64,000 bases of DNA from an uncultured Planctomycetaceae bacterium (GCA_963833985.1 CAWIAD010000001.1:1952001-2016000), one strand, 5' to 3'; counted from the stretch's first letter, positions 9,762-48,134 are shown. Numbers and translations are program-made. The notes: generated from the letters alone by a model not told the origin.

Positions 9762-10128
9762 GGGGGCGAACCAGGATCGACCGGATGACCGAGGTGAACG
9801 GCGGCGTGCCGAGGTTGGTCAGCAGGCCTCGTAAAAAGCCGACCGAAACTTAACTGCCGACACTTACGTGCCGCAGTACCGTCTCGCTGCCTAAACCACA
9901 GCAACGGCCTCGCGCCGGGCCTTCTCCCGAGAGGTTCGGCCGGGGACGACAATTCGGGATCGCCTGAGCCAAACCTCCCGTTGCGGCCCGGGTTAAACTC
10001 ATGATGGGATAAGCCGAAGGGGACCCTGCCGGTCGGGGCCCCCAGGCCGACAATCAAACGATCGGCTACGCACGTAGATGCTCTCACTGACGCTTCTCGG
10101 GACGCGGGTGCAATTCCCGCCGCCTCCA
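9762..10128 (+). ncRNA. ssrA: tmRNA; predicted tag (A)ADTYVPQYRLAA encoded at 9856-9894
   Basis: 5' GGGGGCG pairs with 3' CGCCTCC-A and gives the G3-U70 alanine identity pair; T-arm GCGGGTGCAATTCCCGC; short ORF ending LAA-stop after TAACT; follows smpB. Confidence 0.93.
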
Positions 10129-10420
10129 CTACATGTGATGTAAGTTACTCCAGATAATACGTTTACGTCGATCAGAGACACTGCTTGGCTTCCCGACACA
10201 TCCAATCCTCGGCAAGATTACCGGCCGACGGCGAACGACGGAACGTCCTCTGAACTTTTGGTTCGAGACGTTCGTGTTCTTGGCCAGGACGTCGCTGTTT
10301 GCCCCCGGCGTGGCGAATGGCACCGGAACTCCAGCGCTCCCGCGGCGCGAGCATGGGACTCCCGCTTGGCGGTAGAACATCTCGGCGCAACGTTGCGGAA
10401 TCGAGGCAAGGTGCTGGGAT

Positions 10421-44062: not shown

Positions 44063-44260
44063 TTCCTGGTCCATCAGATAGAAGAAGTGACACCATGTAG
44101 AGTCGAGGTGTGGCGCGGTGGGCTCGAGTCGATGGCTCGGCTGGGCCTCGTTTCCACACCCCGCTCATCAAACTGGACGGGCGGTTTTCCCGCATCCAGC
44201 TTTCGGACAAGGCTTGTCTCATCGGTTGAGTTCACACGTTCGCTCACGAAACCATCGCGG

Positions 44261-44860
44261 CTAGGTTCGTTGCAGCTGGTAAAGATGCAACTCCTGGTGC
44301 AGGTATCTGTCAGGGTAGCGTCTGAGCCCCTGACCCGGCACCTTGAACTTCGCACACAACCACTGACGTACCCGGTAGCGGACGTGGTGGTTGACTTGGC
44401 GATAGGCTGGGCTCACCGTTCCGATGCGAAAATAGTTGGACCAACCGCGTAACTTGCGATTGATCCGACCAATCTGCATCTCGACGTCCTGTCCAGTGGT
44501 CTGGCGCGTCGTCATCGCACTGATCTCGCTGCACAGCCGAATGATCTTCTTCCGCGATGGGCGTGACCCTATGTAGGATCGGCCCGTTCGTCGGTCGTAG
44601 TTCCGGCCGAGGGTATAACCCAGAAAGTCGAACGTCTCCTCAGGCAGGTGGCACAGCCGCGTCTTGGTCTCGTTCACCGTTAACTTCAGCCTGGACATCA
44701 TCTTCCGCATCACCGTCATGGCCTCTTCGGCCGTGCCGCGACAGCAGATGACGAAGTCGTCCGCATAGTTGACGATTCGCGCGACCAGACGCCGCTCGTG
44801 TCCACCAGTCTTCCATCCCTTCACAAATCGTCGCATGTAGATGTTGGACAACAATGGTGA
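44261..44860 (-). pseudogene. ltrA: Group II intron RT/maturase, C-terminal part (no endonuclease domain)
   Basis: SPLLSNIYM, YADD, LKLTVN..KT, FDFLGY and IN..LRGW.NYF motifs. Confidence 0.92.
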
Positions 44861-46514
44861 GATCACGCCCCCAACAATGTTGCGAACTACGTTGTTGGGG
44901 GCCTTTCTCAAAAGGGGACGGACTGACCCGATACACGATGCGGACCTCCTGCTCGTCGATCTCGACCTTCTTCACCAAGGCCCGAACCACCTCCCGTCGC
45001 GTGGCCCAGTCCGGCTCTTGCAACCCTTGCGAGACGCGACGTGCGAACTCCTCCAACTGACCGATCACCAGTCGCAATTCCGCCTCTTGGGCGGCCTCGC
45101 CGATTCGTTGTCGATGCTCCTCCGCCAATCTCGAGAGGCGCGTCCTTGCCGCCGAGATCCGGGGCTCGAACTCCGATTTGTCGAGCAACCCGTCGCCGTA
45201 AGCATCGATTAATCGAGAAATCATCTTTTTCACATTATTTATCAATTTGCCGAGATGCTCCACCTCCTGATTCGGCCCGCCCTGGGCACCCTGCAGCCGC
45301 CGCTCGTACTCCTCCCGGACCCGCTCCGGCTCGGACAGGAGACCTCGTAAGTCCTCCCAGACGGCAGCGTCAAGGATATCGGTGCGGATCTGCTTGTTCC
45401 AGCAGAGGCGCTGCCCGCCGAAACGATAGGCGTCAGAGCCCGTGCAACGGTAGTACGCGTAGCGGACCCTACCCTTGCCCTCGAACGCGGCTCGGCTCGT
45501 CGGCTTGCCGTAGCAGCCGTAGCCGCAGCGCTTGCAGACGACCAGGCCCTGGAGCAGATATCGGCCACCGCCGGGCCGGTCGCGACGGCGTTGCCGGTTC
45601 TCTTCAAGCTGGGCCTGGACAGCCAGGAAGAGGTCTTCGCTCACCAGCCCGGGGACTTCAATGAAGATTTGATCTTCCGAGGATGTATCAACCCGTGAGA
45701 CCGGTCGCCGGGAGTGTTCGGGGCGGCCTCGCTGCGGGCGGAGGCGTTGAGGTTTGAACTCACCTGAGCGCGTCTTGCCGAAGGCCGCGGTCCCCTTGTA
45801 GGCAGGGTTCTTGAGGATCAACCAGACCGTCGCGCGATCCCAGGCCGATTTCCCGGTCCGCGTCGGGATACTGTCGCGCCGGAGGCGTCGGCACACCTCG
45901 CCGATCGAGCACCGTTCCTGACCCACCCATTCGAAGATCTTCCGCACGACCCGGGACTCTTCAGCGAGGACCTGATAACGCGCCTCGCCACCTCCCTCGT
46001 GCTTGCCGATGTAACGGTAGCCGTACGGCGCGCCGCTGAGGACGTTGACCGAACCGCGGCGGGCGGCGTGTTGCTTGCCCCTGCGGCAACGCTCCATGAT
46101 CTTGGCGCGCTCGTATTCCGCGATCATTCCCTGGACCTGAAGCAGCAGGTCGGCTTCCGGACTGCGGCCGACGGGGTTGCGCAAGAAGACGACCTCGACA
46201 CCGCACCGGATAAGTTCCTCAAGGATCAAGACCTGATAGGCATACTTGCGTGAAAGTCGATCCGGATCGAGCATATAGAGGCGGTCGATGGCTCCAGCGG
46301 CGGCTTGGTCCCGAAGTCGCTCGAGTGCCGGTCGGGCCAGGATGTAACCGCTGACGCCGTCGTCCACGAAGTGCAGTTCGGGCTCGCATTCCAAGCCATC
46401 AGTGGCGATCCGCTGAGTGACCGCCTCGAGCTGGCTGGCGATCGTGTCCTCCTTCTCCTGCTGCTCCCCCGAAACCCGGGCGTAGAGCGCCACGCGGAGA
46501 TTGTCCGTGATCAT
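44640..46514 (-). CDS. Large serine recombinase (resolvase, recombinase and zinc-ribbon domains)
   Basis: ALYARVS catalytic Ser, DRLSR, IAEYER, PYGY, IL.NP.YKG and LL.GL..C..CG...YYRC motifs; last ~74 codons lie outside the element. Confidence 0.95.
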   Translation of the reverse strand: MITDNLRVALYARVSGEQQEKEDTIASQLEAVTQRIATDGLECEPELHFVDDGVSGYILARPALERLRDQAAAGAIDRLYMLDPDRLSRKYAYQVLILEELIRCGVEVVFLRNPVGRSPEADLLLQVQGMIAEYERAKIMERCRRGKQHAARRGSVNVLSGAPYGYRYIGKHEGGGEARYQVLAEESRVVRKIFEWVGQERCSIGEVCRRLRRDSIPTRTGKSAWDRATVWLILKNPAYKGTAAFGKTRSGEFKPQRLRPQRGRPEHSRRPVSRVDTSSEDQIFIEVPGLVSEDLFLAVQAQLEENRQRRRDRPGGGRYLLQGLVVCKRCGYGCYGKPTSRAAFEGKGRVRYAYYRCTGSDAYRFGGQRLCWNKQIRTDILDAAVWEDLRGLLSEPERVREEYERRLQGAQGGPNQEVEHLGKLINNVKKMISRLIDAYGDGLLDKSEFEPRISAARTRLSRLAEEHRQRIGEAAQEAELRLVIGQLEEFARRVSQGLQEPDWATRREVVRALVKKVEIDEQEVRIVYRVSPSPFEKGPQQRSSQHCWGRDLTIVVQHLHATICEGMEDWWTRAASGRANRQLCGRLRHLLSRHGRRGHDGDAEDDVQAEVNGERDQDAAVPPA

Positions 46515-46879
46515 GGTTTGTCAAACCCCCCCGACCTTGGACTGGATAGTGTGGACCACAGTCGCGTGGTTGCGGCTGGGTCGCGGCCGATCCAGGCGCT
46601 GCGAAACGACCGGGATCAAGACCTGATATGCACGCGCGATCAATTGCTCCTGAAGCCGAGTGAACTCGAAGTGGCGGGTGACAGGAGGACTGAACGTGGG
46701 CCTCCGTGGGGACGTGATCATGTCGACTCCTCCTCTCCGAGAGCGCGGCCGCCAGCCTGCCTTGGATCGGGATCGAGTCGGGGCTGCCATCCGTGCCCGT
46801 ACTTCGGTCGAAGCCGCGATCTGGAAATGACAGAGTCAGGAATCAGGGACGATTTTGCAACATTGTTGGGGGCGTGATC
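44861..46879 (-). mobile_element. Minimal serine-recombinase integrative element inserted in the intron RT gene
   Basis: Perfect inverted ends GATCACGCCCCCAACAATGTTGC (44861-44883 and 46857-46879); GATC present at both junctions; removal restores the RT frame. Confidence 0.92.
46521..46721 (-). CDS. 66-aa ORF upstream of the recombinase (possible directionality or regulatory factor)
   Basis: Strong GGAGAGGAGGAG RBS; MITSPRRPTF...FEFTRLQEQLIARAYQVLIP; ends 6 nt before the recombinase start. Confidence 0.7.
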   Translation of the reverse strand: MITSPRRPTFSPPVTRHFEFTRLQEQLIARAYQVLIPVVSQRLDRPRPSRNHATVVHTIQSKVGGV

Positions 46880-47574
46880 GGTGCACCTTGCGGTGTACCC
46901 ATCCCCTGGTCTTTATTCCGGGTCGTTCGATGGCGCTGCCCCTTCCCGTCGGTTTCTTCCACCGGTGTTTCCAGCCACATCTTGATCAGCCGCAGGACGC
47001 GACCGTCGCTGATGCGCCGTGACGCCGATTTCATTAACTCGGAATGGGGTATGCTATCGAAATATCCAGATAAGTCCGCGTCCACCACCTCGGTGTGCCC
47101 CGTCTTGAGCAGCCGTTCGACTTCGCGGACGGCGTCCAGGGCGCTGCGCTCCGGGCGGTAGGCGTGTTGTTCCGGCTCCAGGTCGGCCTCGAAGATCGGC
47201 TCCAAGACCAGCACCGCAGCCATCTGCACCACACGATCCTTGATGCAAGGAATGCCCAGCGGCCTTTGCTTGCCGTCCCCTTTGGGGATGTACACGCGCC
47301 GCACCGCCTGGGGTTGATACGTCTCCTTACGAAGTTGTTCCGCCAGTTCGTCCAGCCATCGTTCCTTCCCGGACGCCTCGATGTCGGCGAAACTCTGGCC
47401 GTCGATCCCCGGCGCGCCGCCGTTGGCACGGCAGCGTTCGTAGGCGAATCCCAGAACGTCACGTCGATAAATCTTGTCGTACAGGACGTAGAACCGATAG
47501 TTGGGCGCGTTCTTCGCTTTGGTGTGCAACGCCGTCTGCAACTTCCCGACCTTCAGTGGAGGTGATAGACTCAC
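46876..47574 (-). pseudogene. ltrA: Group II intron RT/maturase, N-terminal part
   Basis: GAPGIDG, RRVYIPK, RPLGIP...DR..Q, DADL..YFD.IPH and GTPQGAPI motifs; truncated at the GATC junction. Confidence 0.93.
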
Positions 47575-48134
47575 GCCAATCTCCCGGCTGTCTGCCGCTT
47601 GTTGCGTTGACCTTGAACCAAGGCCCCTTCCCTCGACCGGAGTTACCCGGCGTCGACGGTACTACGGGCCTCTCCGCCACCCCAGGCAGCCCGGCCGGTC
47701 CCTCGCGGGCGTCCGGTTGAGGGTCACGCGCCCTCACCGCTTGGGGTTTCCCGTGTTGTGTTGATCTCCGTGTGCCGACATGCCGTCGTCAATACCCCGG
47801 TGGCCCGCTGGGTTCTGATCGCTCGTGGGGCGGCCTATTCCAACCGTTTCCCTTTCATCCCCAGCGACGGCGGCCTTCCCCATATTCCAGCAAGGTCGGC
47901 GACCACATTGGACTTTTCGAGGCCTGCTCAACGTTCACTCGCGTTACGGCCTGTCGGTTCGCTGCATCGCCAAGCGACACATCTGTCTCGAAGGCTCCGA
48001 CGGTTTCGTCTCCTCCACCGCCGCTCCGATAGCTACCGGCTGGAGCGACCCAGTTGCCGGGTGGGAGTTACACCCACTGAAGACCAACACCTTTCCACGG
48101 CGCACGGGAGTCGTGTCCCACGAGGTGATTGAAT

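What the first reader, a model, noticed from the sequence alone, without database searches (positions are those of the whole stretch)
44861..46879. Minimal large-serine-recombinase element parasitising a group II intron RT gene
Seen: a 2015-bp unit holding only a 66-aa ORF and a large serine recombinase sits inside the intron RT, between GTPQGAPI and SPLLSNIYM. Both ends carry the identical inverted 23-mer GATCACGCCCCCAACAATGTTGC. Deleting the unit and one GATC gives GGT GCA CCG ATC TCA CCA TTG TTG TCC AAC and an open 432-codon RT with YADD. Established: large serine recombinases integrate through attP x attB, and QG..SP is a conserved RT motif. Inference: this is a cargo-free element that uses another mobile element's conserved motif as its attB, and its excision would reactivate the intron protein. 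I do not recall a characterised system of this design, but cannot verify novelty.
Basis: partly seen in the sequence, partly recalled or inferred. Interest (0 to 1): 0.9.

Follow-up and report, generated by a model that had tools for sequence, protein, structure and literature searches.

The report
Recombinase element that targets intron RTs
A 2-kb jumping element made of only a large serine recombinase and a small partner gene sits exactly inside one conserved codon of a self-splicing intron's reverse-transcriptase gene, and its relatives in several bacterial phyla sit at that same codon, so it is a parasite of another genetic parasite.

Summary
Confirmed and extended. The 2,015-bp unit has 11 near-identical full copies in this genome: 9 at the same Ile codon of intron copies (7 co-oriented, 2 inverted) and 2 elsewhere. 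Two intron copies are empty and encode the intact 432-aa RT. Of 79 homologous loci, 50 of 69 with readable flanks sit in register in the RT QGxx(I/L/V)SP motif, across five phyla and several intron classes, in both orientations. The small ORF is conserved (71 of 74) and is modelled at the recombinase's DBD2/coiled-coil junction like a directionality factor (0.65 against best control 0.00). The crossover dinucleotide differs between the two junctions in 9 of 31 insertions, which is unusual for serine integrases. Phage WO carries the same module: 40% identical recombinase, small-ORF homologue, same att arms. Excision was not observed. No description was found in 8 literature searches; ISfinder could not be searched. 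This scan reported such elements before on other DNA (23 notes, at least 15 genomes). Verdict: real, a new variant of serine-integrase mobile elements.

The parts
47575..48105 (-). Group II intron 5' RNA part; the intron starts GTGCG at 48105
   Evidence: Rfam group-II-D1D4-4 at 47939-48079, 98.9 bits; boundary shared by the genome's intron copies
46879..47574 (-). RT/maturase 5' half, codons 1-232, ending PQGAP; forms the B arm of the target site
   Evidence: identical at protein level to the empty copy
46877..46878 (.). Crossover dinucleotide AT at the upstream junction (first two bases of the RT Ile233 codon)
   Evidence: position inferred from off-target copies and from homologues
46854..46876 (-). 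Element-side att arm upstream of the small ORF
   Evidence: arm motif conserved in 126 arms
46521..46721 (-). 66-aa conserved ORF, candidate recombination directionality factor (core motif V-x3-F-E-x2-R-L...A-Y-x2-L-x-P)
   Evidence: complex model; no Pfam hit (89-aa reading) or NCBIfam hit
44873..46514 (-). Large serine recombinase, 547 aa up to the att arm; the frame reads on through the arm into the flank (stop at 44640, 624 aa)
44864..44886 (+). Element-side att arm at the 3' end of the recombinase gene; first 20 bp are the exact inverted copy of the other arm
44862..44863 (.). Crossover dinucleotide AT at the downstream junction
44261..44861 (-). RT/maturase 3' half starting SPLLSN, with YADD and the maturase domain; forms the B' arm of the target site
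44097..44204 (-). Intron domains V-VI and 3' end (44097)
   Evidence: Rfam RF00029 at 44122-44204; end
48106..48119 (-). 5' exon: first half of the REP-like palindrome into which the intron homes (3' half at about 44087-44096)
   Evidence: 11 intron copies sit in variants of the same palindrome; 14 unoccupied matches in the genome

Best explanation
This is an active, cargo-free integrative element of about 2.0 kb: att arm, small gene, large serine recombinase, att arm. Mechanism, by step. (1) Inferred from the family: the recombinase excises the unit as a circle by recombining the two junctions; the small protein, bound at the DBD2/coiled-coil junction, probably acts as the directionality factor. 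(2) Follows from the sequence: the circle junction (attP) is a near-perfect palindrome around AT, so nothing in the first 20 bp of the arms fixes orientation. (3) Shown by comparison: it integrates at the first two bases of the hydrophobic codon of the RT motif PQGxx(I/L/V)SPxLxN, in either orientation; the Pro, Gly, Leu and Asn codons supply the bases recognised. (4) Inferred: it tolerates a core mismatch, which lets it use Ile, Leu, Val and other codons. Insertion splits the RT; the intron RNA domains stay intact. The advantage is a target that is conserved, multicopy, mobile and dispensable to the host. Occasional insertions go to look-alike sites elsewhere.
For: Own genome: 11 full copies at 99.95-100% identity; 9 at the same intron codon (7 co-oriented, 2 inverted), 2 off-target; 2 empty introns; an older 81% remnant at the same codon of a 95% intron. 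The occupied intron sites score 44-45 bits on a target matrix built from homologue flanks; the three best free sites among 20.3 million positions are the two empty copies and a second, unrelated RT. Homologues: 50 of 69 informative loci in the RT motif; 15 co-oriented and 16 inverted among the 31 with both halves. Targets form 10 clusters at 50% identity among 33 RT halves; recombinases 86-90% alike sit in RT halves 34-78% alike (5 pairs). Intron RNA of Rfam families D1D4-1, -3, -4, -6, -7 or domain V lies in 22 of 35 loci scanned. The complete Singulisphaera acidiphila genome (L033) and plasmid pWW53 (L110) carry it in the same codon. The recombinase frame is open through the downstream arm in 64 of 64 loci with that arm. 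Outer arm bases 16-23 recur at 11-18 of the B' consensus, the 5-bp shift described for attB (PMC3783163 passages). Small ORF in 71 of 74 loci (the profile was built from 42 of them plus the window). Complex model: score 0.65, best control 0.00; mark reached by 116 of 157 solved and 2 of 215 mismatched pairs; runs agree in at least 69% of contacts; partner pLDDT at least 62. Its interface (recombinase 376-405, 490-532) is DBD2 plus the coiled-coil base in the model, the site described for verified RDFs (PMC12286644 passages). Phage WOVitA1's particle genome has the same arm motif around an AT at the same place in the recombinase gene, and that attP was amplified and sequenced (PMC5062602 passages).
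Against: No circle junction or fresh excision was seen (contigs of 4 shallow runs). 19 of 69 informative loci are not in the RT motif, and two whole subclades (an alphaproteobacterial/myxococcal one, and one of AT-rich gammaproteobacteria with phage WO) showed no RT target. The two off-target sites in this genome fit the RT-derived matrix only weakly (top 0.11% and 1.7% of positions). The B (5') arm fits the 5-bp-shift pattern poorly. No significant preference for CAA over CAG at the target Gln codon (30:17 against 139:131, p=0.15). Integrase-RDF complexes are in the PDB (9dxd), so the complex pass may reflect a learnt binding mode; a small repressor or inhibitor binding the same site is not excluded. 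Most loci are metagenome assemblies, and related loci are not independent.
Confidence: 0.85

Rival explanations
1. The recombinase is a relaxed, multi-targeting transposase (TnpX/TndX-like). RT genes are only one good look-alike site, over-represented because insertions there are harmless and introns are multicopy.
For: 2 of 11 copies here and 19 of 69 homologue loci lie outside RT genes, some at sites with little likeness to the motif. Variable cores. Survival bias is real: insertions in essential genes are lost.
Against: Where an RT is hit, it is the same codon in register, across RT halves as little as 34% alike. Genomes hold far more other dispensable DNA than RT motifs. No DUF4368, the marker of the multi-targeting clade (PMC10083194 passages).
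Confidence: 0.1
2. It is a domesticated switch: the host or the intron uses excision or inversion to turn the RT on and off, as skin or SPbeta do for sporulation genes.
For: Precise removal restores the frame; both orientations and empty alleles coexist in one genome.
Against: Both orientations break the RT. A synonymous SNP 15 bp into the 3' half is C in all 7 co-oriented copies and A in both inverted and both empty copies (Fisher p=0.028 for 7 against 2), so copies are not flipping or excising back and forth in place. The element also jumps to non-intron sites and between unrelated introns.
Confidence: 0.04
3. Assembly artefact, or one ancient insertion passively inherited with the intron.
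For: The genome's contig break falls at one such junction; many loci are long-read MAGs.
Against: Short-read contigs cross both junctions; a finished isolate genome and a finished plasmid carry it; elements 96-97% alike sit in different introns of one genome.
Confidence: 0.01

Closest known systems
Phage WO (Wolbachia) integration module, WOVitA1 and WOVitA2
   Same: Recombinase 40% identical over 556 aligned residues, ending in the same QHC; 44.7% for WOVitA2. Upstream small ORF matches the element's profile (E 7e-8 and 5e-9). Same arm motif around an AT core, with the gene reading through attP. WO recombinases fall inside this family's tree.
   Different: WO is a 40-66 kb prophage that integrates in the magnesium chelatase gene or VNTR-105 (PMC9203015 passages; PMC5062602). 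This element has no phage genes, is multicopy and targets intron RTs. WO's attP arms are imperfect repeats.
Phage-type large serine integrases with an RDF (SPbeta SprA/SprB, phiC31, A118/LI, Bxb1)
   Same: Domain order and fold (top Foldseek hit SPbeta integrase-RDF 9dxd, E 3e-22); attP longer than attB, with a shifted outer motif on one arm; small partner modelled at the RDF site; interrupts a conserved coding sequence.
   Different: Only 16-18% identity to the top solved integrases. The whole element is 2 kb. The arms are identical, and insertion is in either orientation. [quoted passage not shown]
Tn4451/Tn4453 (TnpX) and Tn5397 (TndX); multi-targeting LSR clade of Durrant et al.
   Same: A large serine recombinase moves a non-phage element to several sites in a genome.
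   Different: Those recombinases suffice alone (reference titles) and the elements carry mobilisation and resistance cargo (recalled). The multi-targeting clade mostly has DUF4368, not found here. Here one coding motif dominates and a partner gene is conserved.
IS607-family serine-transposase insertion sequences
   Same: About 2 kb, serine catalysis, multicopy.
   Different: NF033518 scores 26 bits against a cut-off of 110. IS607 TnpA is a small protein with an N-terminal DNA-binding domain and often travels with TnpB (recalled); neither feature is here.
SCCmec Ccr recombinases and XisF excision elements
   Same: Best NCBIfam matches (CcrB 103 bits, XisF 102 bits).
   Different: Far below their cut-offs (900 and 375); different targets and no such cargo.

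Membership tests
Large serine recombinases | Catalytic, recombinase (DBD1) and zinc-ribbon (DBD2) domains with a coiled coil and an N-terminal catalytic serine | tested here: met
   Pfam hits above cut-off; S15 at least 90% conserved and C327, C330, C357, C371 invariant in 42 sequences; helices 414-494 in the model
Serine-integrase integrative elements | Ends are hybrid att sites around a 2-bp crossover, with no target duplication beyond it | tested here: met
   Empty alleles against filled ones
Serine-integrase integrative elements | Outer (DBD2) motif about 5 bp nearer the core in attB than in attP | tested here: inconclusive
   Fits the B' arm consensus, poorly the B arm
Serine-integrase integrative elements | Matched central dinucleotide needed for religation | tested here: not met
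   9 of 31 two-flank RT insertions have different cores; AT/TT at a site whose empty homologue has TT. Recombination between copies could explain some cases.
Serine-integrase integrative elements | Cognate RDF needed for excision | tested here: inconclusive
   Conserved candidate and a passing complex model; no functional test
Serine-integrase integrative elements | Circular excised intermediate | tested here: inconclusive
   No circle joint listed in 4 shallow contig sets; shown in print for the homologous WO module
Phage WO / Symbioviridae | Structural, replication and lysis modules beside the recombinase | tested here: not met
   Only two genes lie between the arms; arm-to-arm length 1945-2025 bp in homologues with both arms
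TnpX/TndX-type multi-targeting LSRs | DUF4368 and many unrelated targets | tested here: not met
   No DUF4368; 50 of 69 targets are one motif
IS607 family | IS607-type TnpA | tested here: not met
   26 bits against cut-off 110
Named IS elements (ISfinder) | An entry with these ends and genes | not testable with these tools
   ISfinder is not among the libraries; PLSDB names the gene only 'recombinase family protein'
Group II intron (host element) | RT/maturase ORF within intron RNA domains, GUGYG 5' end | tested here: met

The most novel reading that the evidence does not exclude
A family of minimal two-gene serine-integrase elements specialised on group II introns, which (a) religates mismatched crossover dinucleotides and so follows codon variation in its target, (b) spreads also as a passenger of the intron it disables, by retrohoming with RT supplied from intact copies or by gene conversion, (c) swaps halves between different introns at a fixed RT codon and so can make chimeric introns, and (d) is the lineage from which phage WO took its integrase and a so far unrecognised directionality factor.
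Probability: 0.3. Interest if true: 0.88.

Novelty: new variant of a known kind. Interest (0 to 1): 0.74.

Why it matters
It would be a widespread parasite of a retroelement that recognises a protein-coding motif rather than one gene, and it may limit group II intron activity (10 of 12 copies of this intron are hit here, counting the one split at the contig break). It is about the smallest complete integrase system: two genes and two 23-bp arms. Apparent tolerance of mismatched cores departs from the textbook serine-recombinase rule and can be tested directly. It offers a candidate directionality factor for a recombinase clade that includes phage WO's integrase. It gives a concrete route to chimeric introns. 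It also explains many 'fragmented RT plus recombinase family protein' annotations.

Tried and rejected
Circle or empty-site joints in public runs: none at the att positions among the joints listed (contigs only, low depth, no raw reads), so uninformative. DNA-level codon preference at the target Gln: not significant (p=0.15). That the base 16 nt out on the B' arm sets orientation: no such pattern across 39 homologue arms, and the element arms are identical for 20 bp, so rejected. A special C-terminal extension of the recombinase in the circle: the frame from the upstream arm is open for 52 codons in nearly all planctomycete copies but 7-114 elsewhere, not pursued. Sigma-70 promoter scan: 0 sites in 44700-47100. 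Small protein: no family in Pfam or NCBIfam, one chance-level PDB hit, ESM Atlas best 0.88 to unnamed clusters; leads only. Empty allele of the C1:1741772 off-target site: not searched. Careful ML tree did not finish; only quick trees were used, and 13 of 79 loci with under 380 stop-free residues were left out. Literature searches for a description of this element: (listings and abstract starts seen); none described it. Searches were for mechanism. Papers, passages only: PMC10083194 (8 supplements searched for intron/RT terms and four motifs; part 79 of file 3 read: no RT family among the target Pfams shown; cells over 400 characters are cut and figure pages are pictures), PMC4853749, PMC12286644, PMC11722253, PMC9203015, PMC11376236, PMC11795197, PMC5062602, PMC3898094, PMC3783163. 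A pDK1 plasmid paper, by a DOI recalled from memory, is not held; the pWW53 and pDK1 papers might mention this element and could not be seen.

Full report
1. Observation. A group II intron lies on the minus strand at 44097-48105. Its RT/maturase gene is cut between PQGAP and SPLLSN by a 2,015-bp unit whose ends form a 23-of-23 inverted repeat. The unit holds a 66-aa ORF and a large serine recombinase (LSR) with all three Pfam domains. The two RT halves equal, residue for residue, the 432-aa RT of a natural empty copy in the same genome. Short-read contigs cross both junctions with no differences; they may come from the window's own study.

2. The element is mobile in this genome. G000 holds 11 full copies at 99.95-100% identity. 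Nine sit at the same codon of nine intron copies, seven co-oriented with the RT and two inverted; two sit at unrelated sites. A twelfth is implied at the contig break, and an 81% remnant sits at the same codon of a 95%-identical intron. Two intron copies are empty; one of them carries N239S and L317H relative to the other. The off-target copies show that the crossover is the central AT. One has a frameshift at codon 460. A synonymous SNP 15 bp into the RT 3' half is C in all 7 co-oriented copies and A in the 2 inverted and 2 empty ones (p=0.028 for orientation). So inverted copies are separate insertions, not flips. The seven co-oriented copies, which lie at seven different host sites, probably go back to one insertion. 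They spread either by retrohoming of the loaded intron with RT from intact copies, or by gene conversion between intron copies. Mosaic SNPs in one copy and the report that cargo above 1,000 nt can drastically cut intron mobility (PMC3898094 passage) keep gene conversion fully open. I cannot separate the two.

3. The family. An arm profile found the ends, 1945-2025 bp apart where both were found. Of 69 loci with a readable flank, 50 have the RT motif in exact register; 10 loci were uninformative. The chance rate is 328 of 23,700 per flank with a looser pattern. Among 31 with both RT halves, 15 are co-oriented and 16 inverted. Hosts include Planctomycetota, Chloroflexota, Pseudomonadota, Spirochaetota (tree labels) and Acidobacteriota (L058). 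Targets are diverse: 33 RT halves form 10 clusters at 50% identity, and LSRs 86-90% alike sit in RT halves 34-78% alike. Group II intron RNA was found in 13 of 17 and 9 of 18 loci scanned. The finished S. acidiphila chromosome and plasmid pWW53 carry the element at this codon. Nineteen of 69 loci are not in RT motifs; some are strays of RT-targeting lineages, others form two subclades with other targets. These loci are related and not independent, and only the closest 79 were examined.

4. att sites. The element-side arms are strongly conserved (126 arms). Bases C5-C6 are shared by the element arms and both target arms. The outer motif at 16-23 of the element arm recurs at 11-18 of the 3' target arm, the 5-bp shift known for attB (PMC3783163 passages); the 5' target arm fits less well. 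The core is always the first two bases of the hydrophobic codon after QGxx: AT, CT, GT and rarer ones. In 9 of 31 two-flank insertions the two junctions carry different cores. In 16 planctomycete loci with both flanks in regular arrangement, 5 of 32 core bases differ against 4 of 320 arm bases (p=4e-4). At G000 C2:5865418 the junctions read AT and TT, and a collinear empty homologue in G012 (68-78% alike) has TT at that place. That is what religation of a mismatched core followed by replication would leave. Serine recombinases generally do not religate mismatches (PMC11722253 passage), so this is the most unusual mechanistic feature. Recombination between element copies could produce some of the nine cases. 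The LSR frame is open through the downstream arm in 64 of 64 loci, so its C-terminus depends on the site.

5. The small gene. A homologue precedes the LSR in 59 of 74 loci by pattern and 71 of 74 by profile (partly circular). R22 and Y32 are invariant in 43 sequences. It has no known family. A complex model scored 0.65 against a best control of 0.00; this mark was reached by 116 of 157 solved and 2 of 215 mismatched pairs; runs agree in at least 69% of contacts and partner pLDDT is at least 62. The small protein touches the last strand of DBD2 and packs on the coiled-coil base. Verified RDFs are predicted to bind there, most adding a strand to the DBD2 sheet (PMC12286644 passages). Integrase-RDF structures exist, so the pass shows likeness, not proof. 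I put the RDF reading at about 70%.

6. Rearrangements. Three loci have two RT 5' halves as flanks and two have two 3' halves. In G007 contig C63, two inverted elements 13.4 kb apart carry swapped halves of two different introns: each half is 99.9-100% identical to its normal partner locus or 86-92% to the other intron type. An inversion between the two copies explains this, by homologous or site-specific recombination. Excision from such a state would give chimeric introns; that step is inference.

7. Link to phage WO. The best phage matches are Wolbachia phage WO recombinases (40-47%). WOVitA1 has an upstream hypothetical gene that matches the small-protein profile (E 7e-8), and its particle genome shows the same arm motif on both sides of an AT at the same place in the recombinase gene. 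That junction is the attP amplified and sequenced in PMC5062602 (passages). This is the best outside evidence that the module circularises at this position. In quick trees the two WO proteins nest among RT-targeting LSRs, and holding the 16 RT-targeters together is rejected (p-AU 2e-7, 27 rows). The test set was chosen after seeing the first tree, WO proteins have deviant composition, and the root rests on three relatives of unknown target. So 'WO took its module from this lineage' is suggested, not shown.

8. Mechanism and rivals. Best reading (0.85): a minimal integrase element that excises with the help of its small protein, forms a palindromic attP and integrates in either orientation at the conserved RT codon, with occasional strays. 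Shown: anatomy, repeated independent insertion, both orientations, empty alleles. Inferred: circle, RDF role, mismatch tolerance, restoration of RT. Rivals: a relaxed transposase filtered by selection (0.10), a domesticated on/off switch (0.04), artefact or passive inheritance (0.01).

9. Novelty. It works like a phage serine-integrase module. It is not a prophage, a TnpX-type transposon or an IS607 element by the features tested. Eight searches of the held literature found no description, and the Durrant et al. text passages and supplements name no RT or intron targets. ISfinder, subscription journals and the pWW53/pDK1 papers could not be checked. This scan has noted such elements 23 times in at least 15 other genomes; those are unchecked AI notes and not support. 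A word search of those notes for a WO link found none. I rate it a new variant of a known kind, interest 0.74.

Noticed in passing
G000 intron copies, e.g. window 48106-48119 and 44087-44096: The host intron homes into the centre of a REP-like palindrome; 11 copies are occupied and 14 matches are free. Candidate exon-binding sites lie near intron positions 116 and 207/254 of the stretch examined.
   Followed up: partly
L116 (G000 C2:2142500-2155500): A loaded, inverted intron copy also carries a 1,283-bp insertion (3 copies in the genome) in its RT 3' half, and an empty intron copy follows about 3 kb downstream.
   Followed up: no
G000 C2:4725200-4727100: A second, unrelated intact group II RT (476-aa open frame, 39% alike) has a good but unoccupied target site with a CT core.
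   Followed up: partly
L114 (G007 C63:110000-129999): Two inverted element copies flank 13.4 kb with swapped halves of two different introns.
   Followed up: yes
L141:2314-2589 (KX522565.1 gwv_1155): Phage WO hypothetical gene just upstream of the recombinase is a homologue of the small ORF and a candidate RDF for WO.
   Followed up: partly
L110:6142-8505 (pWW53): A second, different serine-recombinase unit (small ORF plus two recombinase genes) lies next to this element, between benA and xylS.
   Followed up: no
window 9762-10131: tmRNA gene.
   Followed up: no
L085: The element is flanked by long inverted copies of the same flank (76-bp inverted match including the arms), suggesting a rearrangement between two copies.
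   Followed up: no
window 46713-46721 and 46506-46514: Both element genes start with the same nine bases, which resemble the att core plus the first arm bases; possibly chance, possibly autoregulation.
   Followed up: no
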